Source of the DNA: Eledone cirrhosa
Lineage: Eukaryota
DNA: 64,000 bases
Direction: 5' to 3'
Assembly: GCA_964016885.1 (NCBI GenBank)
Contig: OZ024741.1
Location: 162,874,001 to 162,938,000, forward strand
Below are positions 18,916 through 55,788 of the stretch, one piece after another. The position numbers were made by a program, and so were the translations under genes. The notes beneath the pieces are model-generated. The model worked only from the letters and a program-made list of their open reading frames with translations, searched no databases and had not been told where the DNA came from. The stretch's first letter is position 1. Each line of letters begins with the position of its first letter.

Positions 18916-18917
18916 AC

Positions 18918-18956
<39 letters not shown>

Positions 18957-18993
18957 GAGGGAGATCGGTGAGAAGGCACAACAACAGACTGAT

Positions 18994-25159: not shown

Positions 25160-25194
25160 GTTTAAAATAGAGTGGAAAAGATGGGAAAGACCAC

Positions 25195-26481
25195 TTACCG
25201 TACTTTTGGTAGAGGAGGGATGGTTTTTACATCCCTTTTCACTTGATCGTCTGGTGAAGGGACCGTTGAATCGTCCCTTCGGCTGGTCGTCGGCTCTTCT
25301 AAGAGAATGTCTGAGTATACTCTTCGATTGATGGTTCCTCCTAGGTCCCTGAAATCACCAACTGCGTTGGGGAATTTCGTTTTAATGTTTGTGTATTGTT
25401 TCTGTGCTATTTTTAGCAGTCTTATGTTAGTTGGCGTTTTGATTGGTGCTGGTATTATGTAGTCCTGTTGTGAAATGTCTGTGTGTTCAATTATGTAAGT
25501 CATTAGTTTCTTGTTGTGTGTGTTTATTGCCGTGCATTTGTTTTTCTGGGGGTGGGGTGTGGTTCTGCTATTTTCTTGTCGTTGTTGCTGGGTGTGTGTG
25601 TTTTGTTGTTGTGTTTGCGATGTTGGTGCTTGTGGTGGTGGTGTTGAAGGTGTTGTTGGCGGTGGGGTTGTCGCCAGTGGTGATGGTGGTGCTAGTGTGG
25701 GTGGTGATGGTGTTGGTGTTGTTGCTGCTGTGGGTCTCTTTGCAGTAGACTTTACCCTTTTTTCATTTCTTTCCTCCCTTTTCAAAGGCGACGATGCGCT
25801 GCTTCTGCGTTTGTGCCTTCTTACGACCTTTTGCCATCTCTCTCCCACCTCACACTCCATGTCTGATTCTGTGAGGTCGGGGAGGGGTACCAGCTCCACT
25901 CTTTCACTTGTTGTTGTTGGTGATGTTTGCACTGGAGTCTCTGTTGCAGCTGCATTTGGTATTGCTGTTGTTGTTGTTAGTATTTCCACTGCTGCTGCTG
26001 TTTTTGATTTCCGTGGAGTGGGTATGGGTGCCACGGGCCTATCGTTCCTGGTTGCCGCTTGTCCTGTTGCTGGTAGCTGTGGAGCCGGATTCGGAAGGAG
26101 GGGGGTTTTCTCCTTTCTCAGGGTCTTCTCGTTGCAGAAGGCCCTGAGGTGAGTCTTCGATCCACAGCGAAAGCATTTCGGGCGTTTGCCCTCAACACTT
26201 ATGGGCAGTTGAGTGCCGTTATCGAAGTCTATCACATCCGGGATAGCTTCGATGCACTCCTGGTTGGTTTGGATTAGCATCTCAATGGAGGAGCCGACCC
26301 AATCTTCTCTTACTTTTTTCTGTACTTGCAGTACAGTTGTTTTGTCCTCGATTCCGACGAGGACAGACGCGGCCAGCCAAGAAGGGGTCATTCCGGGGGG
26401 GACGTGGGTCAGTTTGACCCTCACAATTTTTTGCCCGCAGTAGGAGGGCACCAACACCATTTCCTCGCTCCTTAGGGTCAC
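25195..26481 (-). CDS. Tx1 ORF1, C-terminal part with CCHC zinc knuckle
   Basis: CFRCGSKTHLRAFC followed by a Pro/Thr-rich tail. Joins 26282-27337 if one base is removed from the T7 run at 26539-26545. Confidence 0.8.
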   Translation of the reverse strand: MTLRSEEMVLVPSYCGQKIVRVKLTHVPPGMTPSWLAASVLVGIEDKTTVLQVQKKVREDWVGSSIEMLIQTNQECIEAIPDVIDFDNGTQLPISVEGKRPKCFRCGSKTHLRAFCNEKTLRKEKTPLLPNPAPQLPATGQAATRNDRPVAPIPTPRKSKTAAAVEILTTTTAIPNAAATETPVQTSPTTTSERVELVPLPDLTESDMECEVGERWQKVVRRHKRRSSASSPLKREERNEKRVKSTAKRPTAATTPTPSPPTLAPPSPLATTPPPTTPSTPPPQAPTSQTQQQNTHTQQQRQENSRTTPHPQKNKCTAINTHNKKLMTYIIEHTDISQQDYIIPAPIKTPTNIRLLKIAQKQYTNIKTKFPNAVGDFRDLGGTINRRVYSDILLEEPTTSRRDDSTVPSPDDQVKRDVKTIPPLPKVR

Positions 26482-27337
26482 TACTGATTGGGCCTTTGCC
26501 TCCTGGGGTGTGGCAAAAAGTACGTCTACGGTGGCATATTTTTTTGCCTCGGGTGATGTGCGTTTTCCGCTGCCACACAGACCCCAAGGCTTTTTGTATT
26601 TGGGCCTCTGTGGCTCTTTCCACCCTACGGGATTTTGTACTTACTGTACGGTACGTGACCGTACAGTGCTCTTGGGTTTCGAAAAAATTTTCCGCTGCCT
26701 TGCAGATTGCTCGGTGTCCGTTCTTTGTCACCATCTTCTTCGCTTCCTCTAATTCCTCATTTGTTATGAGGATTGTTTCCAAGTTTTTCGCAATACCTGC
26801 AAATGAGATTGGTTTTTCTCTGCTGTTGTTGTTGTCGTCAGAGCTGCTGGTACTTTTGTTGTTGCTGCAGGTACTACGACTACTGCCTCCGCCGCTGTTG
26901 CTGTGGTTGTTGTTGGTGTTGCTGCTGCTAATGCTGTTGTTGTTTATGCTGCTGGTGATGCTGTTGCGGCTGCTACTGTTGTTTTCATTGTCACTGTTGC
27001 TGTTGTTATTACGGCTGCTACTGCTATTATTCCTGACGTCAGACGAATGAACTGGGTTTTCGTATTTCCCGCACACCTGTTTCGTCGCTGTCGTCGTCGT
27101 CGTGGAGAAACCTTGCACGCTTTGCACGAGACTTTTCTTATCTTTCGTCACTTGCGAAAGAGAAGGGAGGGAGAGAGACACATTTAAAGAAGGGAGGGAG
27201 AGAGACAATCTTCTCTCTGCTGTAGTGATGATTGAGGAAGAAGAAGACGGGAATGAGTGGGAGTGACGTATGAAATTTCTTTTTCGTAGCCATGTTGTTT
27301 TTTTGTTTAAAATGAAATTTTGGGTACAAAACCCCAA
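26282..27337 (-). CDS. Tx1 ORF1, N-terminal part (Ser/Asn-rich; true start uncertain)
   Basis: Contains SFAGIAK; lies upstream of the zinc-knuckle ORF; frameshift at RGKK|YATVDV. Confidence 0.65.
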   Translation of the reverse strand: MGFCTQNFILNKKTTWLRKRNFIRHSHSFPSSSSSIITTAERRLSLSLPSLNVSLSLPSLSQVTKDKKSLVQSVQGFSTTTTTATKQVCGKYENPVHSSDVRNNSSSSRNNNSNSDNENNSSSRNSITSSINNNSISSSNTNNNHSNSGGGSSRSTCSNNKSTSSSDDNNNSREKPISFAGIAKNLETILITNEELEEAKKMVTKNGHRAICKAAENFFETQEHCTVTYRTVSTKSRRVERATEAQIQKALGSVWQRKTHITRGKKICHRRRTFCHTPGGKGPISSDPKERGNGVGALLLRAKNCEGQTDPRPPRNDPFLAGRVCPRRNRGQNNCTASTEKSKRRLGRLLH

Positions 27338-27530
27338 TAACTGGTTATTTAACCCCGAAGGGCCAAATAACGGACAGAAAGACCCCTCTCACGAGGAGGA
27401 GGGTGTCTTTATCAACAATTTGGTTCAAGTTTTAAACAATTTACAATTGTTTTAACGGTTAAAAATTACTATACCTTACAGAGCCGAGCCTCCGTCAACC
27501 ATGGCATTCAATAATAATAATAATAATAAT

Positions 27531-29120
27531 ATTATGTGTACTGCAAAAAGTGAGAGCAGGATACGGGTTGGGAAAGGGAGGGCTTACCATCAATCACCTC
27601 CTCTTCATGGACGATCTTAAGCTCTTCGGGAAGAGTGAGAAGGAGTTGGATGTGCTTGTTGACACTGTCCGTATTTTCAGCAATGATATATGTATACAAT
27701 TTGGTATTAGTAAGTGTGGAGTCGTTGTGATGAGGAGGGGTAAGTTGAGCAGAAGTAACGGAATCCAGATACCAACAGGTGAGATGATAAAGGAAATTGT
27801 CTCTGAGGAAGGATACAAGTATTTGGGCGTTCTGGAGGCTGATGACATCAAGAACAAAAAAATGAAGGAATTGATAAGAACTGAATGCCTTCGGAGAGTA
27901 AGGAGCGTATTAAAGTCACATCTGAACAGTAGGAATGCCATAAGTGCAGTAAATTCCCGAGCTGTGTCTATTATTAGGTACAGTGCGGGAATTCTGAGAT
28001 GGAATGTTGCTGAACAAAAAGAAATGGATAGGAAGACTAGGAAGCTATTGACTATCTACAATATGTTCCACAAGAGGAGTGATGTCGATAGACTCTACTT
28101 AAGGAGATCTGAAGATGGAAGAGGTCTTATCAGCATAGAGGACTGTGTTCAGATGGAGAAAAACAACCTATACAAATACGTGACTGATAGTAAGGAGCCA
28201 ATGCTCAGAACTGTACTGAAGGAGGGGACAATAGGCCAGGGGATGTCCAAGGAGGAAATAACATCAAGGAGAAAGAGCAGCCTTCAGGAAAAATCCCTTC
28301 ATAGTACCTTCTTTGAGAAAACTGAATTTAGAGATCCACAGACATGGAACTGGTTGAAAAGAGGAGACCTTAAAAAGGCTACAGAAGGAATGTTAATGGC
28401 TGCGCAGGAGCAGGCCCTCAAAACGAAGTGGTTGAAACACCACATTTACAAGGAGGAGGCTAGCCCACTGTGCAGGATCTGTGGAGAGAGAGAGGAGACT
28501 GTGGCTCACATTGTATCCGAGTGTAAACACCTAGCCCAGACTCACTATAAGGGCTGGAGACATGATGTGATGGGCAGGGTGATCCACTGGCACCTATGCA
28601 AAGTAAACAATTTACCACATTCTGAGAAGTGGTATGAGCATAAGCCAGAGGCGGTGATAGAAAACGATCAGGTGAAGGTGCTGTGGGATTTTAGGATACA
28701 GACGGACAAGAAACTGGAACACAATAGACCTGACCTGGTGGTTTTGGACAAAGAAAAAAGATCGTGCCTGATTGTGGATGTGGCCTGCCCATTCGACACG
28801 AGAGTGCAAGAGAAGGAGAGGGAGAAAATTAACCGATACCAGGACTTAAAGTGGGAGGTAAAAAGGATTTGGAACTGCCATGAAGTCAAAGTGATCCCGA
28901 TTGTCATAGGCGCACTAGGGACTATCTCAAAAAGTTTCCAGGGATGGTTAAAGAAAATTGGCCCCTTCACGCTTTTTGGAACGCTTCAAAAGGCATGCTT
29001 GCTGGGAACAGCAAGAACCCTCCGATACGTCCTGAATATCTGAGGCTGCAGGTAGTGGCTTGATATTCATTTCAATAAACTTTCCAGTTAACTAAAATCA
29101 ATGACTGAGACTCAAAGAGT
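27531..29120 (+). mobile_element. R4/Dong-clade LINE family A, copy 2 (5'-truncated; ORF 27550-29043 open)
   Basis: Near-identical to copy 1 from about 19675 onward. (AAT)n at both ends; a SINE 3' stub at 29165-29182 faces its tail. Confidence 0.93.
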
Positions 29121-30701: not shown

Positions 30702-30837
30702 TGTATGTATGTATGTATGTATGTATGTATGTATGTATGTGATTCATATATTTTCCCAGAGAAATCTTTATTTACATTTTACATTTTACATTTATTTACA
30801 TCCTAATGTAACATGGCTAAAAATTCACATGGCTAAA

Positions 30838-33800
30838 GGTTAGCTGGGGATGGTCACCTTACAGAATTCTGTGGAGAATATACATTCTTCTGGAAAGAGA
30901 TGAAGGAACCAGAAGAGAGGCTGGGGTAGCATTTGCTGTTAAGATTGCTCTTGTGGATAAATTAGAAGAATTCCCAGTGGGGATTAGTGAACGTCGTATG
31001 TCCATGAGAATTCGGCTAGAGAAAGGAAGATATGCGACCCTGGTGAGTGTGTATGCTCCAACTATGAATTCTGTCGATAGAGAAAAGGTGTCTTTTAACA
31101 TGCCTTGAAAGGTGTTTTAAGAAATATCCCTCAGGCAGACATGGTCATCGTGCTTGGTGACTTTAATGCTAGAGTGGGTAGGGATTTTAACATATGGAAT
31201 GTAATCGGAAGGCATGGCGTGGGAAGGTGTAACAAAAATGGTATGCTCCTGTCCTGCTGCAGATGTGTGAGGAGCTGGATCTGTGTGTTACCAACACCAT
31301 GTTCCAGCAAAAGAACAAATTTAAGACCACATGGATGCATCCTGCATCTAAAGAATGGCGTCGTTTGCACTACGTCCTTGTCAGGATGCGTGACAGACGG
31401 AATGTGCAGTGTATTCATGTTCTTCGTGGAGCTGAGTGCTGGACGGTCCACCGCCTGGTACGCGCAAAAGTTAAACCTATCACTAAACGTAAAATCCGGG
31501 CTCCTGCTGTTACCCTGCCCAGGAGATTGAATACTGCTCGTCTTAGAGATAAAAATGTGAAGAGGACATTGCGAGAAGAGATGCATGTTGCAGATCTTGG
31601 TGAGGATTGGCCGACCCTTAAAAAGTCGGTTTATGATGTAGGCAGGCGTGTTCTGGGATTGGTGCAGAGAAAACATCAAGACTGGTTTAATGAGAATGGT
31701 GAGCATATAGATGACTTGTTGGCTGATAATAGGCATGCTCAGTCACGCTACTTGACAGCAAACCCACAGGAGAAGAATATGTTGCATAAAGAACTCAAGG
31801 ATGTGAAATCTCAGATGAAGGATAAGTGGTGGAGTGAGGAGGCTGATGAGATACAAGCTGCATCAGATTCCAATAGCACAAAGCAGCTGCTGTACAGTCT
31901 CTTGTGTGAAATTTATGGACCCTCTTCTTCTCTGGTGACACCGCTTCGCAGCACAGATGGCAAGGAACTTCTTCTTGACTCAAAAGGAATTCTACGAAGG
32001 TGGCGAGGGCGCTTTGATGAACTTTTGAATCAGCCATCTGTAGTCAATGAAGATTCCTCAATCTCATTTCTGAAAAACCTGTGAAAGTAGTTCTCGCAGA
32101 ACCAACGACGCTTGTGGGGGTTGCAGTAGCTCTCTCGAAGCTGACCAGTGGAAGGTCTCCAGGTATGGATGGCATACATGCAGAGCTCCTACAATATGGT
32201 GGTGAGAGACTTCTACAACACCTTCACTCTTTGTTTGGCAGGATTTGGGCTAGTGAATCCGTACATGAGGAGTGGAGAGATGTAGTAATGGTGGTCTTGT
32301 ACAAGGGAAAGGGTAACAAGAATGATTGTCGAAACTACAGAGGTATATCATTGCTTTCTGTCGTAGGAAAAATGTTATGTAGGGTGCTTCTGGACCGTCT
32401 GCTGACACACATTGCAGATTGTGTTCTTCCTGAAAATCAATCTGGTTTTCGTGCTGGACGCGGCACTACTGATATGATCTTCTCAGCCAGACAGCTCCAT
32501 GAGGAAATGCATGGGTACAAGGTTTGGATCTGTAACAGGTTTTTGTCGATCAGACAAAAGCTTTCGATACTGTTAACAGAAATGCACTGTAGAAGGTTTT
32601 CCAGAAACTTGTTTGCCCTGATAAGTTCCTTGCTTTGGTTAGGTCTTTCCATGGCAACATGAAGACTTGGGTTAATGTCGGAGGTAACATGTTGCAGCCT
32701 ATCTCAGTAAACAATGGAGTGAAACAGTGGGATATTCTAGCACCGACCCTGTTTGCATATACTTTGCAATGTTTTCTATATTGCATTCAGGAATTGCGAG
32801 CATATCCAATATCGAACCTCAGGCAGCATATTTAACATCAAGCGCTTTGCTGCAAAAAGAAAAGTATTTACATCAATCATAAGAGACCTCTTGTATGCAG
32901 ATGATTGCGATCTTGTAGCGCACACAGAGAGTGATATGCAGCACATTTTGATTTTATTTTCTGATGCACTGCCCTAGGATTGAATGTAAGTCTAAAGAAA
33001 ACCGTCGTCATGTACCAACCTGCCCCTGGTAAGCAGTACAGTGAGCCAAATATCTGTGTGTGTGGTAAACGACTTGGAGTAGTTGATCAGTTTGTCTACC
33101 TGGGAAGCACTGTCAATCGATACAGCAACCTTGATAATGAAATTCCACTCAGGATTAGGAAAGCAAGTGATGCTTTCTGAAAGCTAGAAAGGCAACTCTG
33201 GGGTCGGCGAGACATATGCAAGAAGACAAAGGTAAAGGTGCACAAGACATGTGTGCTCTCTTCTCTTCTTTATGCCTGCGAGATCTTAAACAATTGGAGC
33301 ATTTTCATCAGATATGTCTCAGACAGATCCATGGCGTTCACTGGAGGGATCACATCAGTGATGTCGAGATTTTGGAAAGCCCTCTGTGTGACAGTATAGA
33401 AGCTCTTGTGCTTAAGCAAAGACTCCGTTGGAGTGGTCACCTTGCCAGGATGAAGGATTCTAGAATACCAAAACAACTCTTTTATGGAGAGTTGGTTAAA
33501 GGAAAACGGCCTCCACATAAACCAAAAAAGAGGCATAAGGATTCGTTGAAAACCTCTTTGAAAGACGCTAACATCTCTGCTGATACATGGGAAAATGTTG
33601 CTGCTGATCGTAATAAATGGAGAAAGACTCTATATGAGAGGAAAGTTGCCTTTGAGGCATCTCGAATCGCATACGAGAAAGTAAAGAGGGATGTGAGGAA
33701 AGGCACTACTGTTGCATTTCCACACGGTGAAGGTCCTCCTATGGCGCTGACATGTAGTGTCTGTGCGAGAGTCTGCTTCCTGCAAAGCTGGACTCGAAAG

Positions 33801-34101
33801 TCATCTTCGCAGTCATAAAGTGAGACCAGTGGTTGACTACAAGGCTGATGTTGGAGATGCTACTCATCATGCCTGCCAAGCATGTGGTAGAGAATGTAAA
33901 TAAGCAGGAGGGCTCAAACGACATGCAAAAATACATGAACTCCAACCACAGCAGGCTATTCCCAGTGAATGTTTTGGTTGCCAAATCTGTGTAAGACATT
34001 TTAGATCATTGGCTGGGCTAAAAAGCCACATTCGATCGCAGCACTGTTAAATGTTATCGTGTGTGTGTGTTTGTGTGTGTGTGTATGTGTGTATAGATAT
34101 G

Positions 34102-34168
<67 letters not shown>

Positions 34169-34690
34169 CGCGTCTCCCTTGCCGTCCTCCGGGGAAACGC
34201 CTTCTGTATTCTGTCCGCCGGGGCTGTGGGGAGGCCACCGATATGATTGACTGACTTGTCATTTCATCAGTCAGATGTTTTTAGACCCCAGTACTGGAAG
34301 TTCTGAATACCGTTTATTTTTTGATGTTACGCTTGTATATTTAATTAATCTTAATTGTAGTTTACATTCGAATGTATTATTATTATTGTTGTTATTAAGG
34401 GGCGGTGGATTGGTAGTATCGGTAGAGGGTCGGACGCCATGCTTTCCAGCATAGAGTTACGGCCCTTGCCATTCTGAGTTCAAATCCCGCCGAGGTTAAC
34501 TTTGCCTTTCATCCTTACGGGGGTCGATACAATAAAGTATCAGTCACGCACTGGGGTCGATTTAATCGTCTTTCCCCTCCCCCAAAATTGCTGGCCTTGT
34601 GCCTATATAAGAAACCATTATTATTGTCGTTATTATGTTGTTTTTCATTCGTGCTATGGCTATACTCGATAATGACGAGGCAGCCATCAT
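30838..34690 (+). mobile_element. RTE-clade LINE, degenerate (APE, RT and three C2H2 fingers); 3' end displaced by an insertion
   Basis: YTFFW, SVYAPT, LGDFNARVG, TTWMHP, NYRGISLLS, QSGFRAGRGT, LLYADD, RLRWSGH..RIPKQLFYGEL; many frameshifts. Confidence 0.92.
34399..34622 (+). mobile_element. tRNA-derived SINE (main family), full copy in ATT-rich sequence
   Basis: A and B boxes, core, gtcgatttaatcg segment, ends agaaaccattattatt. Confidence 0.9.
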
Positions 34691-34775: not shown

Positions 34776-35191
34776 TCTGGGAGAGATGACCCCTTAGCCT
34801 TTGTCAAGGCAGAATTCTAGGAGAAGGAAAACTCTGATATAACACCTGCAACCCTGATGGTATCCAATGATGTTGACTTGTTCTTCTTTTTGGTAAATAT
34901 CATCTTGGTTAAGAGAGTGGGACTGGCTTTGTGCAGTGCCTTTGCTCACTATAAAAGCTTCACGGCACAGGCATTGCTTTATATCTGGAGATCTCTCTGC
35001 ACTTGTCGTCACATGGTACAATGGGCCCAGCACTATGTGTCAATAATTGTCACAAGTGTAGTGTTTGTACCAGAGTTTTCAAGTCGCTGGCTGGACTAAA
35101 AAGTCACACTCGTTCAGCGCATCGGTAGGGGTTCTCCTACATGGATATAAAGTAGTGGCCGTACTCGAAAACGAGTTGGCAGCCACCACCA
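34776..35191 (+). mobile_element. Non-autonomous RTE-derived element in (TATG)n
   Basis: ctaggagaaggaaaactctg 5'UTR motif; residual C2H2 finger CSVCTRVFKSLAGLKSHTRSAH; 3' stem-loop. Confidence 0.8.
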
Positions 35192-43397: not shown

Positions 43398-46300
43398 TTC
43401 TTCTGGTTTTATAATTTCACAAATTTTTTCCCAAAAGAGAGAGAGTCGGTTTCTAACATAGACACAAGACTCTCTCATTGGAATTTACACAATCACAACT
43501 AGGTAGATTATGTATGCATGCATGTGTAGATATGGTTGTTATTGTATGTGTGGATGTGTATGTTTTAAGTTGTATGTGTGCATGTGTATATGCTTTGTAT
43601 CTATACATGTATATATGCAGTTATTATATGCAACAGTTTTGGAATGTTTTACATATTTTTACTGTTCCATTAATGGATTGTACTTGTAATTTCCTAAGTA
43701 GATGTGTTCTTTCTGTTCATGTGAAGCCTAGCTTCTCAAGATTTGTATTGAGGCAGTTACTAACATACCCCAGTGCCCCAATAACCACAGGCATAAATCT
43801 AAATGTGTAATCAGGAGGGAGTATCTGTAGATTTTTCATCAGTTCTGCATAATATTCTCCCTTTCGCTAATCTTTGATATTATATTGGCACCTGCTGGGC
43901 AGCTAATTTCCACTACTGTGCATGTTTTCTTCTCCCTGTCCCATATCATAATATCTGGTCTGTTATGCCTGGATTTTATTGGGGTTTTTACTGGAACATT
44001 CCACGAGTACTCTTTCATATTATGTACATGGATGTCTTCCACATTGCTGTAGCTTTTAATGTGTTTATTATCGGGGCTATCTTTTTTACGAACTGCATTG
44101 TACAGTGTTTTGGCCACTACATTATGCCTAATAGGTAGATAGTACCGCGATGACATCTTTGGGCAGCTGCTGATGACATGGGTGATATCCTCGATGTTAG
44201 TTCTGCAGAGCCTGCACTTGTTATCACATCTAGGTGTTTTGCCTGCATCCCTATCTCTTTTGTGAATCAGGTATCTCGTGTTAATCTGCTGTTCTTGGAT
44301 GGCAAAAGCGTATCCTTCAAAGTGGGAGCCAATATAGCGGTTGTTGGTTCAAGATAAACTACTTACGTTATCTATATTACTCTCTCTCTCTCTGGAGCTT
44401 CCTGGCAACAGATCCATGCATGATGTTTTGCTGATAAGCATGCAGCTTTTAAGCCATGGATTCACTGTGATACTGCTGAGCGACTTCCCTGGGTGTGAGT
44501 TTTTGATTATCACACAGGGAATAACTCTCGAGGAGTTCCTTCCCAACTCTCATGATCTTATCTGTTTCATGCAGATAGACTTGCTCTAGAGACGGGCTCC
44601 TACGCTTCGAGTTTCGTAGATGTTGTCGGAGAGATATGATGCTACATTCAAAAATTGTCTGGACTGATGTTAGGCCGCTGCCTCCCTGCTTACGTTTCAA
44701 GTAAAGGCGGTCTATGTTACTGTTGATGTGGAGGTCTCCAGTGTTGTTTAGTATTTTTCGAGTTCCAACATCAACTGCTCAGATTTCGTCTATCGTCCAA
44801 TTGAGTATTCCAAACGTTGGTGTTAGGACAGGCACAGCAACCAGATTGTGAGCCATTGTTTTGTTTTGAGCAGAGAGTTCCGCTGACCAAATCATTCTTA
44901 TTCCGGTGTAGTATTCCCTGGTTACGCGTTTCTTATTACAGATACCATTATAGGATATGTTCTCATCTATCCCCAGGTATATGTAGTAGTCCTCATCAGA
45001 TATCGGAGAAACAGTTAGGCCATTGATGACAATGTTGCTAGATTGGGTTGTTGTTTTTCCTCGCTTTACAGTCATATATGAGCATTTATCTTGGCCAAAC
45101 TCCATTCCTATTCCCAGGTATCTGTAGCAGTCCTCATCAGATATCTGTGAAACAGTTAGGCTATTGATGACAATGTTGCTAGATTGGGTTGTTGTTTTTC
45201 TCCGCTTTACAGTCATATATGAACATTTATCTTGGCCAAACTCCATTCCCATATCCTTTGAGAACGTTGTTACCAGGTCAAGATTTTTCTTCATCCCATC
45301 CATGTTCTTGTCATAGAGTTTCAGATCGTCCACAAAGAAATTATGGGTTAGGTTCGTATTTCTGTCCTCCTGTTAGCTAATGATGTATCCCTCACATTTC
45401 TTGAGCAGAAAGGTCAAGGGGTTTAATGACAAGATGAATAATATCACAGAGAGACTGTGCACCCTCTCTGTCTTTAACCTTAGGATAGTAGCCCAAGAAG
45501 AAGACAGCCTCTCTATGGCTCTGACAATAATGTCTGGGACTTTAGCAAGTTGGAGGGCCTCTATCATCCAAGAGTGGGGAACAGAATCGAAAGCTTTCTT
45601 GTAGTCCAGCCAAACTGTAGCCATATTCCTCCTAAGTTGTCGCACCTCCGACATCGCAGTTTTGTTGATTAGGAGTTGTTCAGCACATTCCAAAACCCCT
45701 TTCTTTCTAGCTGCTTGTTCAACTGTGATGATGTTATTATTTTCACAGTGATCTTGGAGGAATATGTTCAGGCAGGCTGTATACATCTTATACATCAGGT
45801 TCTGGCATGCAATGGGTCGGTAGTTTTTTGCCAAGTGGGTGTCTTTGTTCTTGGGGACCAGTAATGTTTGTGCTAATGTCAACCATTCTGGTATAAGTGT
45901 ATCGCCCTTAAGAACTTGTTGGTAGATGTCAGTAAGATACCTCCAATAGAATATCAGTTTTTTGTACCAGTAGCCGACAATCATGTCTCTTCCTGGTGTT
46001 TTCTTATCTTGGAGTTTTCCTATCACAGTCTACCCTCACTTATTTCGTATGTTTTTGTTGTAGTGTAGGAGCAATAGTTCTTTCGGATTTCTCTTAGCCA
46101 CACTGCATCATGGTTGAAATTCTTCTTTTCACCCCATATTTTGCTCCAAAAGGAATCTATGTCTCTCTGGAATGGGGCCTGAGTGACACTTATTATTTTT
46201 TTCTTCATATCTCTATAGACTGATGTTTGGTTTCGTCTGAATCTTTTATTAGGCACTTTTCTCTCATCTACTTTCTTCAGGTATCGGCGTTTTTCGCTGA

Positions 46301-47580
46301 CAGCTCTCACTTCTTATTTGAGGGTGATCAGCTTATATTGAAGAGTTCTGGTTCTACTGTTACCAAACATCGTCTCTATTTTATTTTTCACTTTTTGTTG
46401 GTGAGGAGTGAGGTTTTTTTTGTGTTTGTTTGCATGTAAGGAACATTGTCACATATCCTATGGTTTTTCGTAGGTCAGCAATCTTTTTTTCTATTTTAGT
46501 TATATATGATGGTATTTTTGGTGGTGTTCTGTTCTTGTTAATATCTCTGCTATCACCAAGATAAAGCTTCACTGTCGTTGCTAAGGCATATAAACAGGCG
46601 TTGATTTGCCAAAATGTTGGGGTTTTTATCCGTCGTAAATATTCATCCCTATTTCGCCAATAACACGTAATATTTCATTAGATGTTTTTTTTATTTATTA
46701 AACATTGTCGTTTTAATACGTTCAGCAAGAGAGATATTTATACATGAATTAATTTCTCTCTGGAAGATTTCGTTGAGGGAAATTTTCAATTGTTTATACT
46801 TTTGATTATTATCATTATCGATAGTATTTTCCACAACAGTCGAGGTAGACTCGGATGGTACACGTGGTGTCAAATTTCTTCGATCATTATTATTATTTCT
46901 TCGATTATTATTATTATCGATAGTGTTTTCCCCAGCATTCGAGGTAGTCTTAGATGGTACAGGTGGTGTCAAGTTTCTTACAGGCATAGTTGTTTCAAGG
47001 CGCTGTTCGACCTGGTTGTTAGGAAGTCTAGTAGCATGGCGACCTGTAGCTCATGTTGTTGATCCCATATTTGTTGTTAGCGACTTATAATTAATACTAT
47101 TTATCTTATTTTTACGTTCAACAAACGTCGCTTGTTGGCGTAAATGTTTCGCTGTGAAATAATTTAGCCCTGGGTGCATTTCGTCCCAGTGTAGCTTCAT
47201 TCTATTCATATAGCCAATGTAGGGATTGTTTTTTGCCATTTTATAACAATTAAATAAATCATTATTAAGTTCACAACTCCAAGAGAAATGCAATTTATAA
47301 TTTCGGTTTCTTCTGTAGCTACAACTGAATAAAGTTTGTTAACCTTTCTTGTTTGTCTTCCTTAATTTTGTTGTTAATGTTGTGTTCAGCTATGCTGTTT
47401 GTAGCAAATACTTGTAAAATGAATTATGTATTTAGTCTGATATCTCTACGAATTCGAATAAAAAGTGTCTTCAGAAGATATAGTTGACTATAGTTGTGGC
47501 ATTTACTGTCGGTGATAGTATTCATCTTAAGTTTAATAAATAGTCTCCCACGCCAAAATAGGCGACTCATCGCGTTGACT
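43398..47580 (-). mobile_element. Dong-B, near full-length but degenerate, in (TATG)n
   Basis: N-terminal domain WS..LN.DL..CY..GYMNRM..W, RT, CCHC and RLE pieces in order; (TATG)n on both sides. Confidence 0.9.
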
Positions 47581-47769
47581 GTATGTATGTATGTATGTAT
47601 GTATGTATGTATGTATGTATGTATGTATGTATGTATGTATGTATGCATGTATGTATGCGGAAGAACTCATAAGGGTCAACGGCTATCCAAAAGTGTGTAA
47701 ATATGTCTATACACGTGTACATGTGTGTGTGTGTATGTGTATATGCATGAGTGCATGTGTATTTATATG

Positions 47770-48125
47770 CGCGGGGACATAGAAATAGTCGGGCTGGACA
47801 CCCGATCGCGCGGTTAAACCACTGGGAGTGAAGGACCCCTAGACTTTCTCAGGGCATTCTTCTAGGTGAAGGCAACTCAGGAAACTGGGATAACTCCGAT
47901 ATAAAACCTGCGGCTCAGTAGTTACCGATGATGTTGGTCTTTTCTTCTTTTCGTGTTATAGCTACTGTCGCTCAGAGAGAGGGATTGGCTCAGTGCACAG
48001 TCTTTCGTCACTTTAAAAATAATCTCCACGCACAGGCATTGCACGATAGAATTAATTAATTATTATTAATAATGGTATATCGTGCAATGGCCATACTCGA
48101 TAACGAGGGGGGCAACCATCATCAT
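47770..48125 (+). mobile_element. Non-autonomous RTE-derived element
   Basis: Same 5'UTR motifs as 6551 and 34776; 3' end ggccatactcgataacgag..catcatcat runs into (TATG)n. Confidence 0.7.
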
Positions 48126-48182
48126 GTATGCATGTATGTATGTATGTATGTATGTATGTATGTATGTATGTATGTATGTATG

Positions 48183-48410
48183 TTCTCATTTTCTTCTTCT
48201 TTTTTTTATTTTTTTGACCGGCCACCTTCCTGGTGGCAAGGTTGTAAAAGAAAAGAAATTGTCATCCCTTGAATCGCAAGAATGTTTTGCAAATTTTGAA
48301 GGTGCCAGCTGTCGCAGCCATTTGTAGACTATGAATTAGGGAGCTGCGCTTTTTGTCCGCAAATCCAAGTTCAGTCATACTTTGGTCCAAGCGGGTTGGT
48401 ATATAACCCG

Positions 48411-48411
<1 letters not shown>
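48183..48411 (-). mobile_element. Dong-C 3' fragment in (TATG)n
   Basis: Matches 50192-50422; (TATG)n on both sides. Confidence 0.85.
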
Positions 48412-48442
<31 letters not shown>

Positions 48443-48690
48443 TGTATGTATGTATGTATGTATGTATGTATGCATGTATGTATTTATGTGTGTATGCATG
48501 GATGTATGCATGGATGTATGCATGATTTATGCATGGATGTATGTATGTAAATATGTATGTATGAAACATGTGTGTATGTATGTATACATGTATTTATGTA
48601 TGTATGCATGTAGGTATGCATGGCTGTATGTCTGTGTGTAAATATGTATGTATGCATGGATGTATGTATGTGTGTAAATATGTATGTATG

Positions 48691-50180
48691 TTCGTCTGGT
48701 TTTGTAATTTCACAAATGTTTACCAAGAGAGAGAGAGAGTCGGTTTCTAACATAGACACAAGACTCTCTCATTGGAATTTACACGACATCAACTAGGTAG
48801 GTATGTATGCATGCATGCCTGCATGCATGTGTAGGTATGGATGTTTTGTATGTGTGCATCTGTATACGCTTTGTATCTGTACATGTGTATATGCAGTTAC
48901 TAGATGCAACATTTTTGGAATGTTTTACATATTATAACTGTTCCATTAATGGATTGTACTTGTAATTTCCTACATTCCACCAGTACTCTTTCATATTATG
49001 TGCATGGATGTCTTCCACATTGCTGTAGCTTTTAATGTGTTTATTATCAGGGCTATCTTTTTTACGGATTGCATTGTACAGTGTTTTGGCCACTACATCA
49101 TGCCTCATAGGTAGATAGTACCTGCGAGGATATCTTTGGACACCTGCTGATGACATGGGTGATATCTTTGATGTTAATTCTGCAGAGTCTGCACTTGTTA
49201 TCACATCTAGGTGTTTTGCCTGCATCCCTATCTCTTTTGTGAATCAGGTATTTCGTGTTAATTTCCTGTTCTTGGATTGCAAAAGCGTATCCTTCAAAGT
49301 GGGAGCCAATATAGCGGTTGTTGGTCCAAGATAGACTACTTTGCTTTTCTATATTACTCTCACTCTGGAGCTTCCTGGCAACATATCCATGCATGATTTT
49401 TTGCTGATAAGCATGCAGTTTTTCATCCATGGATTCACTGCGATACTGCTGAGCGACTTCCCTGGGTGTGAGTCTTTGATTATCACACAGGGAATATCTC
49501 TCGAGGAGTTCCTTCCCAACTCTCATTATCTTATCTGTTTCATGCAGATAGACTTGCTCGAGAGACGGGCTCCTACGCTTCGAGGTTCGTAGATGTTGTC
49601 GGAGGGATTATATGGGACATTCAAATGCTGTCTGGACTGATGTTAGGCCTCTGCCTCCCTGCTTACGTTTCAAGTAAAGGCGGTCTATGTCACTGTTCAT
49701 GTGGAAGTGTCCGGTGTTGTTTAGTATTTTTCCAGTTCCAACATCAACTGCTCGGATTTCGTCTATCGTCCAATTGAGTATTCCAAACGTTGGTGTTAGG
49801 ACAGGCACAGCAAACACATTGTGAGCCATTGTTTTATTGTGTGCAGAGAGTTCCGATGACCAAATCTTTCTTAATCGGGTGTAGTATTCCCTGGTTACAC
49901 GTTCCTTATTACAGATACCATTATAGGATATTTTCTCATCTATACCCAGGTATCTGTAGCAGTCCTCATCAGATATCGGTGAAACAGTTAGGCCATTGAT
50001 GACACTGTTGCTAGATTGGGTTGTTGTTTTACCCCACTTTACAGTCATATATGAGCATTTATCTTGGCCAAACTCCATTCCCATATCCTTTGAGAACGTT
50101 GTAACCAGGACAAGATTTTCTTCATCCCATCCTTGTTCTTAGCATAGAGTTTCAGATCATCCACAAAGAAATTATGGGTT
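48691..50180 (-). mobile_element. Dong-B, 5'-truncated, RLE core deleted near 48970
   Basis: Matches the 43398 copy; YWWNV is fused directly to the C-terminal segment; TATG flanks. Confidence 0.9.
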
Positions 50181-50191
50181 ATGTATGTATG

Positions 50192-53100
50192 TTATCTCTT
50201 TCTCTTAATTTCGAGTATATTTTTTTGACCGGCCACCTTCCTGGTGGCAAGGTTGTAAAAGAAAAGAAATTGTCATCCCTTGAATCGCAAGAATGTTTTG
50301 CAAATTTTGAAGGTGCCAGCTATCGCAGCCATTTGTGAACTATGAATTAGGGAGCTGCGCTCTTTGTCCGCAAATCCAAGTTCAGTCATACTTTGGTCCA
50401 AGCGGGTTGGTATATAACCCGTAGTTCCAATAATGATGGGTATGAAGATAAAAGTGTATCTTGGATACTGGATTTGTAAACTCCTCATCAATGGTCCGTA
50501 GATGTCCTCTTTCTCCTGTATTTTTCTGACAACGTTTACATCAAGTGGGCAGCTGATCTCCACAAAAGAACACGTTTTCAATGTGTGGTCCCAAACAACA
50601 ATATCAGGCCGGTTGTGCTGTGCTTTAATTTGGTGGCAGTTTTTATTTTCAGGTTCCACTAGTATTCCTTATTGCCATCTGTCTCAATATATTCTTCCTC
50701 GTTTGTTGTTAATTTTGTTTTCCGAAGTGCGTTCCAGATGGTTCTAGCTATCCCATCGTGTCTTCTGGGGAGGTAGTAGCGAGATGACATTCTTTCGCAG
50801 CTGGCAACAATGTGGCTTACATCCTCGATCTTTGTTTTACAAAGCCTACATTTATTGTCAGCTGATGGCCCTCCCCTTTTGTGCAGCAGATATTTGGTAG
50901 GGATTTCTTGTTCCTGTATTGCATAGAGATATCCCTCAAGGTGTGATCTCATAAACTTGTCGGAACTCCATGCCAGGATTTTTGAGTGGTTTATCCTCTC
51001 TATAGTCTTTGTTTTACGTCTCAAGTATCCATGCACAACTTTTTCTGTAAATTGGTCAATTTTTTCATCTTGTTTGAACATTGAATAGGATCTTCCGATT
51101 TCTCTGGGTGAGAGATTTATATCAGGCTTTATTCCATATCTCTCCTCCAGATCAGTGGCTATTCTAATGATATTTTTTTTTTCATGCTCATAAACCTGGG
51201 CAAGATGGTTGGCAACCTTTTTCCTCTGTTGAAGATGTTGCTTCAGTGTTACTATCCGGGTCTCATATGATGTTAATATGGATTTTAGACCCCGGCCACC
51301 TTCCTTGCGTGAGAAGTATAGCCTATCCACATCAGAATTGATGTTAAAGTTCCCAGTAACACTGAGAAGTTTGCGAGTTCTAACATCCATCTCACTTACT
51401 TCTTGCAATGACCAGTTCAGCAGGGCAAATGTTGACGTTAGAATTGGCACAGCATAAGTATTGTGGGCATAAGTGTTGTACGCTGACAGTTCTGATGACC
51501 ATATTTTCTTTACTCTTCTGAGGTATTCAGTTCTGGTTCTCTCCTTATTTATGGGTCCATCATATCTGACATTCTCATCCTGTCCAAGATATCTGTAGTT
51601 GTCAACTGACTGTAGAGGTTGTATTGTTAGGCCGTTCTTCCCTAGATTTCTAGAGGAGGGCACAGCTCTTCCACGTTTTACTGCCAAATATGCACACTTG
51701 GACTCACCAAATTTCATTTTGATGTCTGTTGAAAATTGTGTAATGAGGTCCAATTGTTTCTTGATGTCATTGATATTTGGCCCATACAACTTCAGGTCAT
51801 CAACAAAGAAAAGATGGGAGATACTTCTGGACCCACTTCTTTGTCTACCTTGTTTCCTGAGTAGGTAAGATAGTGGATTTAGTGAGAGAACAAAGAGTAG
51901 CACTGACAAGCTATCACCCTGAAATATGCCCTTCTGATAATGTATCTAATCAGTCTTAACTTGCTCCTTCTCACCTCTAAGGATCAAATTGGTGTACCAG
52001 TTCTTGGTCAGACGTTCAACAGAAGCTACCAGTGGTTGTGGGACTTTGGCTAACTGTAAAGCCTTAACAATCCACCCATGAGGTACACTATCAAATGCTT
52101 TTTGATAGTCCAGCCACACCACAGTCATGTTTCTGCGATTCTTTGTTGTTTTTTCTTGAATCATTTTATAAGTTAATAGGTTATCTATGCAACCCCACAC
52201 CTCCCTCTTTCCACCAGCTTGCTCAGGTGTTATGATGTTGTTGGTAGCACAGTGATCCTCTAAGAACAGGTTAAGGCACCCAGTATATAATTTATACATG
52301 ATGTTTTGGCAGGCTATTGGGCGGTAATTTTTAGCAAGGGTCGTTTGGCTATTTTGGGGAATGAGGAGAGTAGTGGCAGTTGATAACCATCTGGGCAGTT
52401 CTTGGGTGCCTTTAATGGTTTCTGTAAACAGCCGTATGAGATCTTGCCGATAGAAAGTGAAATTCTTCAACCAGTATCCTGTAATGAGGTCTGGGCCTGG
52501 TGATTTCCTATTCGACATTTTATGTAGAGCTGTTTCCAGTATTGACCCATTTATGTCATATTGTTTTGTCTCGACATGTTGGCAGTAGTCCTGTTCCAGT
52601 TCTTTTAGCCAATTAGTTTGTCTGTTGAATCCGTCAATCGTTTCCCATACAGATCTCCAGTAGCCCTCAACCTGTTCTTTTGAAGGGGTGTCATTTACAG
52701 GGATTGAGCTTTTGCCACTGAAGCTGCGATAAACTGATTTAGGATCTCTGGCAAACAATCTATTTAGCACTTGTCGTTTATGTGCGGTTGACTTATATTT
52801 TAGTCTTTCTGTTGTAGCTGTGAGTTGTTGTTTCAACTGGTGTAATTTGGAGTTTAAAGTTTTAAATTTTGTATCTCCAAATCGTCTCTCTAACTTTTTT
52901 TTTTAGGTCTTCCTGGTGTCGTGTGAAGTTGCTCTCTATGTTGAATTTCATAACGATTGCGATGTGTGAGATACTCCATCTCAGGGACAAAACTTTGCTT
53001 TTTAAATTTCGCATCCACGCTGGTTCAGGATTTTTGTTTGTATCTTGATTGCGTGGTTTTAGATGTTTGTTATATGATAGTAATGTGACAGCTGAAACAT

Positions 53101-53793
53101 ATCACAAAATGTTAAGCGTTTCAAATGTTTCTACACTCTTAGATCGTATAGCCTTCAGATAATTGTCAGCTATTTCGTTCACCGCTTCCAATTCCAATTT
53201 AGTGGGTTCTTTACTGATTCTTGGGTTGTATAGTCTGTCACTCACATTAAGGCTGTGTATCTCTTGAAACATATCGTCCCATATCACTTGTAAGGTGCCC
53301 ACAAGTTTTTGGTGTTCTGTTTGTACAGTAGAGTCATGAATTTCAGCCTCGTTGTTGATGTGGTGACAATTACTACTAGAGTTAGCTGACCATTCTCACT
53401 GTTCTTCAGTGGAAGTGTGATGGATTTCAGCAAAATTGTTGGTGAGCTGTTCACTGTTAGATTTAGCTGGCCATTCTCTTTATCTGTCAGTGGAGGTGGG
53501 GTGGTTGTCTACAAGGGCTGTATTTGTAGTATGATACGTTTTGCCTGTTCATTTAAATGCTTTCGAGAAAAGTCTAATTCTGGGTGTTTGGAGTTCCATA
53601 AAGTTTTTAGCCTTTGCATAAAAAACCGAACTTTTGGGGTTCAAAGTGTTTGTATGCTTCATATAATTCTTTGTTAAGCTCGTAGCTCCACTGTATACAA
53701 CGGTTGTAGTTGCGATTTGGTCGAAGGAGACTTGTACGTTTTGCCATGATGAGTTCGTCTATTCACTAATATTTTGTATTTATTTTTCAATTT
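50192..53793 (-). mobile_element. R4/Dong-clade LINE family C, near full-length with frameshifts, in (TATG)n
   Basis: ATG at 53747 (MAKRTSLLRP..QWSYELN), NYRPIAC, WLDYQKAFDSVPH, HLFFVDDLKLY, CRLC..HIVASC, RHD, RPD..VEISCP. Confidence 0.92.
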
Positions 53794-53853
53794 GTATGTA
53801 TGTATGTATGTATGTATGTATGTATGTATGTATGTATGTATGTATGTATGTAT

Positions 53854-54116
53854 GGTTAAGAGAGTGGGACTGGCTTTGTGCAGTGCCTTTGGTCACTATA
53901 AAAGCTTCACGGCACAGGCATTGCTTTATATCTGGAGATCTCTCTGCACTTGTCGTCACATGGTACTATGGGCCCAGCACTATGTGTCAATAATTGTCAC
54001 AAGTGTAGTGTTTGTACCAGAGTTTTCAGGTCACACTCGTTCAGCGCATCGGTAGGGGTTCTCCTACATGGATATAAAGTAGTAGCCGTACTCGAAAACG
54101 AGTTGGCAGCCACCAT
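53854..54116 (+). mobile_element. Non-autonomous RTE-derived element, 5'-truncated, in (TATG)n
   Basis: Nearly identical to 34908-35191 apart from a short deletion. Confidence 0.85.
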
Positions 54117-54237
54117 GTATGTATGTATGTATGTATGTATGTATGTATGTATGTATGTATGTATGTATGTATGTATGTATGTATGTATGTATGCATGCAT
54201 GTATGCATGCATATATGTATGTATGCATGCATGCATG

Positions 54238-55338
54238 TTTTTCTTTCTCTTAATTTCGAGTACATCTTTGACTGGCCACCTTCATGGTGACAACGTTGTA
54301 AAAGAAATGAAATAGTCATCCTTGAATCACAAGAATGTTTTTCAAATTTTAGAGGTGCCAGCTTTCGCAGCCGTTTGTCGTCTATGTATTAGGGAGCTGG
54401 GTTCTTTGTGCACAGATCCAAGTTCAGTTATACTTTGGTCCAAGCGGGCTGGTATATAACCTGTAGCTCCAACAATGATGGGTATGAAGCTGGAGGTGTA
54501 TCTTGGATACTGGATCTGCAAACTCCTCATCAATGGTCCGTAGATGTCCTCCCTCTCCTGTATTTGTCTTACAACTTTTACATCAAGTGGGCAGCTGATC
54601 TCTACAGCAGAGCGCGTTTTCAATGTGTGGCCCCAAACAACAATATCAGGCCGGTTGTGCTTTAATTTGGTGGCAGTTTTTATATTCAGGTTCCACCAGT
54701 ATTCTTTAGTACCATCTATCTTAACATATTCCTTATCGTTTGTTTTTAATTTTGTTTTCCTAAGTGCGCTTCAGATGGTTCTAGCTATCACATCATGTCT
54801 CATGGGGAAGTAGTAGCGATACGACATTCTTTCACAGTTGGCAACAATGTGGTTAACATCTTCGATCTTTGTTTTACAAAGCCTACATTTATTGTCGACT
54901 GATGGCCCTCCTCTTTTGTGTAGCAGATATTTGGTAGGGATTTCTTGTTCCTGTACTGGATAGAGAAATCCTTCAAGGTTGGATGTCATAAACTTGTCGG
55001 AATTCTATGCCAGGCTCTTTGTAGGATTTATTCCCTCTATGGTCTGTGTGTTTCGTTTCAGACACCCATACACAACTTTCTCTGTAAATTGGTCTATGTT
55101 TTTATCCTGTTCGAATATTGAATAGGATCTTCCAATTTCCCTGGGTGAGAAATCTATATAAGGCCTTATTCCATATCTCTCCTCCAGATCAGTGACTATC
55201 CTAATGATATTATTTCCTTCATGTTCATAGACCTGGGCAAGATGGTTGCTGATCTTTCTCTTTTGCTGAAAATGTGGTTTCAGTGTTACTATTCAGGTCT
55301 CGTATGATGTTAATATGGATCTTAGACCCCGGCCACCC
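54238..55338 (-). mobile_element. Dong-C subfamily, 5'-truncated copy
   Basis: Homologous to 50192-51300 but clearly diverged; 3' end in a TATG/CATG tract. Confidence 0.88.
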
Positions 55339-55344
55339 ATATAT

Positions 55345-55708: not shown

Positions 55709-55788
<80 letters not shown>

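What the first reader, a model, noticed from the sequence alone, without database searches (positions are those of the whole stretch)
47770..54300. Mirror-image niche sharing: APE and RLE elements use opposite strands of the same microsatellite
Seen: RTE-derived elements end in (TATG)n and Dong-B/C end in its complement (CATA)n; they meet tail to tail at 48124-48182 and 54114-54237. Tx1 and the SINE end in (ATT)n and Dong-A ends in (AAT)n; they meet tail to tail at 21461-21490 and 29121-29165. The same arrangement therefore occurs with two repeats and different clades, and PLEs end in (TA)n. Inference: a retroelement-microsatellite system in which families renew each other's landing sites. Cause is unresolved, since RTE derivatives may simply enter pre-existing repeats.
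Basis: inference. Interest (0 to 1): 0.8.

Follow-up and report, generated by a model that had tools for sequence, protein, structure and literature searches.

The report
Retrotransposons share microsatellites in opposite orientation
In this animal genome, unrelated jumping-gene families sit in the same two simple DNA repeats and consistently face opposite ways, likely because each cuts a different strand of an already existing repeat rather than because they feed one another.

Summary
The four tail-to-tail junctions are real (one is a 17-base SINE stub), and the strand polarity holds beyond the window. RTE and its derivatives sit in (TATG)n and Dong-like RLE elements B/C/D in (CATA)n. Tx1 sits in (ATT)n and Dong-A in (AAT)n. 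All 41 classed RTE-Dong and 26 Dong-Tx1 neighbours are opposite.

The interpretation mostly fails. Both 5' and 3' ends are flanked by the repeat. In the TATG system head-to-head is as common as tail-to-tail (15/49 vs 10/28; 8/56 vs 8/56), neighbours show no cross-family preference (p 0.72, 0.76), and adjacency does not exceed the rate at long tracts in 1.2 Mb of evenly spaced genome (p 0.17; AAT p 0.51). Interrupted target-site duplications (14/81 vs about 3.5 expected), including one at 47639-47656/48124-48141, show that readable 'tails' are copies of a pre-existing tract.

Renewal survives only in family-blind form: each insertion splits a tract and duplicates about 10-25 bp, and RTE-1 carries a (TTA)n that a SINE and a Tx1-type end have used. 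The SINE is mostly not tract-bound. Closest precedent: TRAS1/SART1 in telomeric repeats.

The parts
47580..47656 (.). (TATG)n tract; last 18 bp (47639-47656, with a GCAT interruption) is the left target-site duplication
47657..48123 (+). RA: 5'-truncated non-coding RTE-derived element; last 40 bp match the 3' end of autonomous RTE-1 (87.5%, E 3e-9)
48124..48183 (.). (TATG)n; begins with the right copy of the 18-bp duplication (48124-48141); tail-to-tail junction RA/Dong-B
48184..48412 (-). 3' fragment of Dong-B (RLE element)
48413..48691 (.). degenerate (TATG)n; Dong-Dong head-to-tail junction
48692..50180 (-). Dong-D, 5'-truncated, internally deleted, broken ORF
50193..53790 (-). Dong-B lacking about 590 bp of its 5' end; RT, CCHC and RPD..D RLE motifs, broken by stops and frameshifts; preceded by a short TATG tract at 50180-50192
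53793..53854 (.).
53855..54114 (+). RB: 5'-truncated RTE-derived element; family 3' 179 bp match RTE-2 (90.5%, E 4e-70)
54115..54237 (.). (TATG)n; tail-to-tail junction RB/Dong-C
54238..55337 (-). Dong-C, 5'-truncated, 87% identical to Dong-B
18077..18917 (-). four tandem tRNA-like SINE copies separated by (AAT)n; 18918-18954 (AAT)n is a head-to-head junction with Dong-A1
18955..21460 (+). Dong-A1, 5'-truncated RLE element, interrupted by a SINE (20403-20585, -) with a 17-bp duplication (20386-20402/20587-20603) and no repeat tract
21461..21490 (.). (AAT)n; tail-to-tail junction Dong-A1/Tx1
21491..27509 (-). Tx1-like APE element (ORF1, APE, RT, zf-RVT), apparently full length; 3' ends of the 30 loci are 99.7-100% identical
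27510..27531 (.). (AAT)n; head-to-head junction Tx1/Dong-A2
27541..29120 (+). Dong-A2, 5'-truncated, 95% identical to A1; followed by (AAT)n 29121-29165 and a 17-base SINE 3' stub
30790..34688 (+). RTE-1, broken autonomous-type copy (APE motifs, RT, zinc fingers); microsatellite-rich 3' UTR whose internal (TTA)n holds a SINE (about 34398-34620, +)
34777..35190 (+). RB copy flanked on both sides by (TATG)n (34689-34776, 35191-35236); RTE-RTE head-to-tail
43399..46400 (-). Dong-D copy ending at (TATG)n 43372-43398; further copies at 30068-30667 (-) and 2922-3923 (+, followed by ATAC repeats) keep the same polarity

Best explanation
Four non-LTR retrotransposon lineages sit in two microsatellites with fixed, opposite polarity, likely because each independently targets a pre-existing tract and nicks a different strand of it. 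Shown: RTE-1/-2 and their non-coding derivatives read (TATG)n, or (TA)n, on both flanks; Dong-B/C/D read (CATA)n; Tx1 reads (ATT)n; Dong-A reads (AAT)n; insertions carry target-site duplications of about 10-25 bp where an interruption lets them be read. Inferred from standard target-primed reverse transcription: the APE families would nick the A-rich strand and prime through a short CAT/ATT overlap with their RNA end, and the RLE families would nick the T-rich strand. It follows logically that any mixed pair on one tract is tail-to-tail or head-to-head and any same-family pair head-to-tail. Each insertion leaves two tracts where there was one, so nests grow, but blind to family.
For: Polarity at both ends: RTE derivatives TATG at 50/60 3' and 51/60 5' ends, with one CATA call; Dong-B CATA at 27/30 and 46/51, never TATG; Dong-A AAT at 56/60 and 23/28, never ATT; Tx1 ATT at 27/30 3' ends. 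After dropping 7 window-derived and 4 near-duplicate loci: RTE-Dong neighbours opposite 41/41, Dong-Tx1 26/26, same-family neighbours same-strand 37/38 (TATG). Tail-to-tail vs head-to-head: 10/28 vs 15/49 (p 0.80) and 8/56 vs 8/56. No cross-family preference: p 0.72 and 0.76. In 120 evenly spaced 10-kb stretches, RTE-tail/Dong-tail pairs number 3 of 131 tracts vs 2.1 expected (p 0.44). Against long tracts there is no excess (p 0.17 and 0.51). Interrupted duplications ending at the 5' junction: 14/81 in TATG families vs mismatched-pair null (p 8e-6). The 3' repeat follows the 5' flank (TA vs TATG; rho 0.45, p 3e-4, n 60). Tx1 L258 has a 51-bp duplication and no tract; the SINE at 20403-20585 has a 17-bp duplication and no tract.
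Against: No true empty allele was obtained. Duplications are readable in only 16 of 115 two-ended insertions, and in 1/28 Dong-A and 1/6 Tx1, no better than the null, so target origin of the AAT tails is not shown by this test. Against all tracts, adjacency is enriched 2.7-4.2-fold in 4 of 5 comparisons (p 0.004-0.02); it vanishes only when long tracts are the null, and long tracts may be long because elements made them so. Element-bordered tracts are longer than free ones (median 20 vs 12, p 1e-5 and 3e-4). Tx1 3' tracts may exceed 5' tracts (33 vs 13.5, n 30 and 6, p 0.07). Head-to-head symmetry was not shown for the AAT system (Tx1 at 18/57 Dong-A 3' ends but 1/26 5' ends, with unidentified neighbours; Tx1 5' search empty). 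About half of all neighbours stayed unclassed. Focal loci are the closest relatives of the window copies, not a random draw, and the tests have modest power.
Confidence: 0.7

Rival explanations
1. APE elements (RTE, Tx1) write new repeat units from their RNA tails, and Dong adds repeats at its 5' junction, so insertions lengthen tracts well beyond the duplication and thereby supply long targets to all families.
For: Long tracts are mostly element-bordered (31/45 TATG, 27/40 ATT). Dong-B 5' tracts are longer than 3' tracts (median 40 vs 14, p 0.004). L018 has about 20 extra repeat-like bases between the duplication and the 5' junction, and L008 and L016 have tandem duplications in the 5' flank. 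RA adds 1-3 CAT units of its own. TATG tracts are occupied on both sides more often than chance (16 vs 8 expected, p 7e-4). RTEs are reported as microsatellite sources in Lepidoptera (PMC2887409, abstract).
Against: Readable duplications start within 0-7 bases of the element end. RB in (TA)n ends in (AT)n rather than TATG (7 of 8 TA-flanked copies). Tx1 L258 and L270 and the SINE at 20403 made no tract. A preference for long tracts and post-insertion slippage explain the same length patterns. ATT tracts show no two-sided excess (9 vs 7.4, p 0.46).
Confidence: 0.18
2. Cross-family mutualism: RTE tails are preferred sites for Dong and vice versa, giving a tail-to-tail system.
For: 10/28 Dong-B tails meet RTE tails and 18/57 Dong-A tails meet Tx1 tails, above the all-tract rate (p 0.03, 0.004). 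RTE-1's 3' UTR carries a (TTA)n used by a SINE (window) and a Tx1-type end (L005), 2 of 7 such UTRs seen.
Against: Head-to-head is equally frequent and neighbour identity is independent of the focal family in the TATG system. There is no excess over long tracts, and both families are flanked by the repeat at their 5' ends.
Confidence: 0.08
3. No active targeting: elements insert broadly and survive in repeat-rich regions, or the pairs are copies of one composite or duplicated locus.
For: The SINE does behave largely this way (6/33 with a tract). One RTE-3/RA composite is amplified as a unit (L209-L218), and a few locus pairs are duplicates (L014/L015, L062/L063).
Against: Survival cannot give strict strand polarity or fixed junction phase. 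Very young Tx1 copies are already in ATT (27/30). Tail-to-tail partners belong to several subfamilies (three Tx1, four RTE-derived) with different truncation points.
Confidence: 0.04

Closest known systems
TRAS1 and SART1 of Bombyx mori
   Same: [quoted passage not shown]
   Different: Those are telomeric and both are APE elements (R1 clade, recalled). Here the repeats are interstitial microsatellites and the split runs between APE and RLE elements, on two repeats.
Dong / R4 clade
   Same: RLE elements inserting into (TAA)n in insects, molluscs, cnidarians and an ostracod (PMC7998251 and PMC3812793, passages). Dong-A matches this target and polarity.
   Different: Dong-B/C/D, related to Dong-A (32-44% identity), use (CATA)n, a target I did not find in print in the searches run.
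Microsatellite-targeting Tx1 families (Kibi, Koshi, crocodilian Tx1)
   Same: Tx1-clade APE elements preferring (TC)n, (TTC)n, (TTCC)n or (TTTC)n (PMC4494074, passages).
   Different: The target here is (ATT)n, shared with a Dong on the other strand.
RTE clade and bipartite non-autonomous RTEs
   Same: Microsatellite-like 3' ends that correlate with the duplication start and may prime by base-pairing (PMC6007223, passages); internally deleted derivatives (PMC5786205, passages); microsatellite-rich 3' UTR as described for octopus RTE-2_OV (PMC9115989, passages; sequences not compared).
   Different: RTEs are described as dispersed and as makers of microsatellites (PMC2887409, abstract). Here the derivatives are flanked on both sides by (TATG)n or (TA)n, so they behave as tract-targeted.
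Waldo and Mino (R1 clade)
   Same: APE elements targeting ACAY and AC repeats (PMC3812793, passages); ACAY includes the ACAT repeat used here.
   Different: Different clade; no RLE partner on the other strand was mentioned in the passages seen.

Membership tests
R4/Dong clade (Dong-A, -B, -C, -D) | RT followed by CCHC finger and PD..D restriction-like endonuclease, no APE | tested here: met
   RVT_1 and zf-RVT hits; CxxC..HxxxxC and RPD..D motifs read in translations; the motif reading is from my own knowledge.
R4/Dong clade (Dong-A, -B, -C, -D) | No N-terminal zinc fingers (unlike R2 and NeSL) | tested here: met
   Dong-B only: 531-aa open N-terminal frame of L054 shows none by eye or Pfam. 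Dong-A, -C and -D N-termini were not fetched.
R4/Dong clade (Dong-A, -B, -C, -D) | Divergent N-terminal Myb/SANT domain (PMC7998251) | tested here: inconclusive
   Three-helix model, pLDDT 70; Atlas Myb clusters score only 0.77-0.84, lead level; Pfam none; fold search best Z 6.1, rmsd 3.6, 69 aligned, generic helices.
R4/Dong clade (Dong-A, -B, -C, -D) | RT phylogeny groups with named R4/Dong elements rather than NeSL/Togen or HERO | not testable with these tools
   No named references were obtained (120 listed hits essentially unnamed; no PDB match). A, B and D are closer to each other than to RTE or Tx1. The label 'Dong' rests on structure, target and recalled motifs.
R4/Dong clade (Dong-A, -B, -C, -D) | Site-specific insertion into rDNA or (TAA)n | tested here: met
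   Dong-A: AAT at 56/60 3' and 23/28 5' ends. Dong-B is site-specific but for (CATA)n, a variant target.
RTE clade (RTE-1, -2) | Single APE-RT frame with short or microsatellite-rich 3' UTR | tested here: met
   APE motifs, RVT_1 and C-terminal fingers in the broken copy 30790-34058; clade name from recalled features, no tree with references.
Bipartite non-autonomous RTE (RA, RB) | 3' end shared with an autonomous RTE | tested here: met
   RA/RTE-1 40 bp at 87.5%; RB/RTE-2 179 bp at 90.5%.
Bipartite non-autonomous RTE (RA, RB) | 5' part derived from the RTE 5' end | not tested
   No full-length RTE 5' end was fetched; RA and RB share about 180 bp of 5' sequence at 89%.
Tx1 clade | ORF1 plus APE-RT-zinc finger ORF2; target preference | tested here: met
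   Exo_endo_phos, RVT_1 and zf-RVT; ATT at 27/30 3' ends; clade name by recalled resemblance, no reference tree.
TRAS/SART-type opposite-strand target sharing | Two families flanked by the same repeat in fixed opposite orientation | tested here: met
   41/41 and 26/26 opposite neighbours.
TRAS/SART-type opposite-strand target sharing | Endonuclease-determined nicking of opposite strands | not testable with these tools
   Needs a cleavage or retrotransposition assay; RNA-tail annealing could set the RTE and Tx1 polarity instead.
SINE mobilised by an APE element and targeted to (ATT)n | Tract-bound insertion and an identified partner LINE | tested here: not met
   6/33 random 3' ends and 1/33 5' ends have 9 or more perfect ATT bases nearby; partner not identified, only a loose 3'-end likeness to Tx1 subfamilies.

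The most novel reading that the evidence does not exclude
A self-feeding target economy: most long TATG and AAT tracts of this 3-Gb genome are retroelement-grown (duplication, Dong 5' additions, and TTA repeats exported inside RTE 3' UTRs), and the APE/RLE split across strands on two different repeats is selected rather than accidental, for example because read-through into an oppositely oriented neighbour gives antisense RNA against the competitor.
Probability: 0.15. Interest if true: 0.72.

Novelty: new variant of a known kind. Interest (0 to 1): 0.42.

Why it matters
It extends TRAS/SART-style opposite-strand sharing to interstitial microsatellites and across endonuclease types. It adds three apparently unlisted targets: a Dong-like lineage on (CATA)n, Tx1 on (ATT)n, and RTE derivatives bound to (TATG)n/(TA)n. 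It also reverses the usual reading of RTE 'tails' as element-made. About two thirds of long tracts of both repeats are element-bordered, so these families shape the microsatellite landscape and would confound microsatellite markers. Very young Tx1 copies make the birth-versus-entry question testable with polymorphic insertions. The APE/RLE split rests on only two APE lineages and one RLE lineage, so it is not yet a rule.

Tried and rejected
Empty alleles from public runs: three contig sets of one sample and one RAD run were laid on 46600-56200. Multi-copy reads swamped the stretch and no record bridged a site, so it was uninformative. Empty sites from paralogous repeats (109 two-ended insertions): matches were other nested junctions, with only L270 (Tx1 in a SINE, short overlap, no tract) and L148/L243 as partial cases. 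The search for Tx1 5' ends found nothing, which shows nothing. The idea that Tx1-Dong-A pairs are one transduced composite was tested and rejected: partners come from three Tx1 subfamilies, and only 8 of 30 Dong-A1 ends have a Tx1 tail. RTE-3 loci L201-L220 were left out of the counts because about ten are one amplified RTE-3/RA composite. Clade naming by homologue search and PDB gave no named references. A Myb fold for the Dong-B N-terminus was not recovered by fold search. Earlier findings: none for this genome. A planned third extra batch of 20 random stretches could not be fetched, so the null is 120 stretches, weighted to the four largest contigs. The organism was not determined.
Full report
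Setting. The window is G000:C2:162874001-162938000 of a 3.0-Gb genome in 1796 contigs. The organism was not determined.

Observation. The cluster 47580-55337 is a nest of six insertions separated by TATG tracts: RA(+), Dong-B fragment(-), Dong-D(-), Dong-B(-), RB(+), Dong-C(-). It has two tail-to-tail, one head-to-head (53793-53854) and two Dong head-to-tail junctions. The AAT nest 18077-29182 has one clear tail-to-tail junction (21461-21490), one with a 17-base SINE stub (29121-29165), and two head-to-head junctions (18918-18954, 27510-27531).

Identity of the parts. RA ends like autonomous RTE-1 (40 bp, 87.5%) and RB like RTE-2 (179 bp, 90.5%), so 'RTE-derived' holds for the 3' ends. Dong-A, -B and -D share 26-53% identity in pairwise matches and score far above Tx1 and RTE on a profile of Dong-A homologues. 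They carry CCHC and RPD..D motifs. Dong-B has no N-terminal zinc finger; a Myb domain was inconclusive. No named reference was available, so the clade labels rest on structure and recalled features.

Genome-wide ends. Seven own-genome searches each gave 30 loci of the 40 best-scored matches; they are the nearest relatives of the window copies, not a random draw. Flank polarity: RTE derivatives TATG at 50/60 3' and 51/60 5' ends (13 TA or mixed, 5 none, 1 CATA); Dong-B CATA at 27/30 and 46/51; Dong-A AAT at 56/60 and 23/28; Tx1 ATT at 27/30 and 3/6. Full-length RA, RB and Dong-B begin directly after the repeat. The repeat is therefore a target, not only a tail.

Neighbours. After dropping 7 window-derived and 4 near-duplicate loci: Dong-B 3' ends have RTE opposite 10, Dong same 4, other 14 of 28; Dong-B 5' ends 15, 12, 22 of 49. 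RTE-derivative 3' ends have Dong opposite 8, RTE same 8, other 40 of 56; their 5' ends Dong opposite 8, RTE same 13, RTE opposite 1, SINE 1, other 33 of 56. All 41 mixed pairs are opposite. Tail-to-tail equals head-to-head (p 0.80), and neighbour identity does not depend on the focal family (p 0.72, 0.76). AAT system: Dong-A 3' ends have Tx1 opposite 18, Dong same 15, SINE 2, RTE 1, other 21 of 57; Dong-A 5' ends Dong 9, SINE 2, Tx1 1, other 14 of 26; Tx1 3' ends Dong opposite 7, SINE same 7, Tx1 same 3, other 12 of 29. Head-to-head symmetry is thus not shown for AAT; several 'other' flanks are recurrent unidentified families. About half of all neighbours are unclassed.

Null. In 120 evenly spaced 10-kb stretches there are 131 TATG tracts, 21 with an RTE tail on the left and 13 with a Dong tail on the right, both in 3 (2.1 expected; p 0.44). 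There are 113 ATT tracts, 14 with a Tx1 tail and 9 with a Dong tail. Against plain element density the focal adjacency is extreme (p 2e-20). Against all tracts it is 2.7-4.2-fold in 4 of 5 tests (p 0.004-0.02). Against tracts with 20 or more perfect bases it is absent in all 5 (p 0.12-1.0). This last null is partly circular if elements lengthen tracts: 31/45 long TATG and 27/40 long ATT tracts are element-bordered, and bordered tracts are longer (median about 20 vs 12). TATG tracts are occupied on both sides more than chance (16 vs 8, p 7e-4); ATT tracts are not (p 0.46). Rough scaling of 26 RA/RB 3' ends in 1.2 Mb gives some 65,000 copies.

Origin of the 'tails'. Where a tract is interrupted, a duplication can be read: 16 of 115 two-ended insertions vs 5.9 expected from mismatched pairs, and 14 of 81 in TATG families (p 8e-6). 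Dong-A (1/28) and Tx1 (1/6) are no better than the null by count. In the window, RA is bounded by an 18-bp duplication with a GCAT interruption (47639-47656, 48124-48141), so the start of that 'tail' existed before insertion. Others are L113 (23 bp), L119 (22), Dong-B L021 (19) and Tx1 L258 (51 bp, no tract). The 3' repeat follows the 5' flank: 7 of 8 RB copies with a TA-rich 5' flank end in AT repeats (rho 0.45, p 3e-4). The SINE inside Dong-A1 has a 17-bp duplication and no tract, and only 6 of 33 random SINE ends have a tract. Against this reading: Dong-B 5' tracts are longer than 3' tracts (40 vs 14, p 0.004), some Dong-B 5' flanks carry extra or tandemly duplicated repeat (L018, L008, L016), and RA adds 1-3 CAT units. 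No true empty allele was obtained.

Mechanism. Shown: two-sided flanking, fixed polarity, duplications, and family-independent neighbours in the TATG system. Inferred from target-primed reverse transcription: APE families nick the A-rich strand and prime through a short overlap with their RNA end; RLE families nick the T-rich strand, and the long 5' tract of Dong-B may reflect an upstream binding need (by analogy with R2, recalled). The mirror pattern then follows from polarity alone. Real but family-blind renewal: each insertion yields two tracts and duplicates about 10-25 bp, and RTE-1's 3' UTR exports a (TTA)n found occupied in 2 of 7 copies seen. The APE/RLE split has only two APE lineages behind it, so a chance match (1 in 4) is not excluded.

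Literature. Passages seen: PMC7265360 (TRAS1/SART1 in opposite directions), PMC3812793 (Dong TAA, Waldo ACAY, Kibi, Koshi), PMC7998251 (Dong TAA target and Myb), PMC4494074 (Tx1 microsatellite targets), PMC6007223 (RTE 3' repeats and priming), PMC5786205 (bipartite RTEs), PMC4640811 (Togen on TG, HERO), PMC9115989 (octopus RTE 3' UTR). Abstract and outline only: PMC2887409. No supplements were read; target tables in them, Kojima and Fujiwara 2004 and Repbase Reports (not seen) may already list these targets. Searches showed no listing that describes APE/RLE opposite-strand sharing of a microsatellite or a Dong on (CATA)n; most listed papers were seen only as listings.

Verdict. Real and genome-wide polarity; a new variant of known target sharing; the mutual-renewal system is not supported beyond a family-blind effect. 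Interest 0.42.

Noticed in passing
window 30790-34688; L005, L038, L115, L116, L141, L154: RTE-1's 3' UTR is built of (TG)n, (TA)n and (TTA)n; the (TTA)n holds a SINE in the window and a Tx1-type 3' end in L005, so one family spreads another's target.
   Followed up: partly
L032-L060, L002-L029 (5' flanks of Dong-B); L018, L008, L016: Dong-B 5' tracts are much longer than 3' tracts (median 40 vs 14) and some carry extra or tandemly duplicated repeat at the junction; upstream binding need or repeat addition by template jumps.
   Followed up: partly
L251-L280; window 21491-27509: Tx1 family is very young (3' 306 bp 99.7-100% identical across the 30 loci); L258 has an unusually long 51-bp target-site duplication.
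   Followed up: partly
L209-L218: An RTE-3 fragment plus RA head appears amplified as one composite unit at about ten loci.
   Followed up: no
L282, L286, L291, L295, L304, L308, L249 (3' flanks of Dong-A); L224, L243, L248, L246; L294, L249, L280; L021, L053: Recurrent unidentified families border the AAT or CATA tracts; likely further members of the same target guilds.
   Followed up: no
window 7028-12651: Penelope-like element (GIY-YIG, weak Pfam hit) with (TA)n at both ends; an RTE-type 3' end sits in the same (TA)n at about 7027.
   Followed up: no
window 55345-55591: Inverted repeats of 65 bp (86%) directly at the 5' end of Dong-C, probably a small DNA transposon in a TA site.
   Followed up: no
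window 36257-36672: Degraded piece with similarity to the Tx1 C-terminal region (tblastn E 4e-13).
   Followed up: no
window 34167-34240 and 58354-58425: Short repeat (82% identical) inserted after the (TG)n of RTE-1's 3' UTR; family not identified.
   Followed up: no
L099, L109, L117: RA copies whose 3' repeat is (CAT)n, (CA)n or (CATT)n instead of TATG, suggesting loose priming on related repeats.
   Followed up: partly
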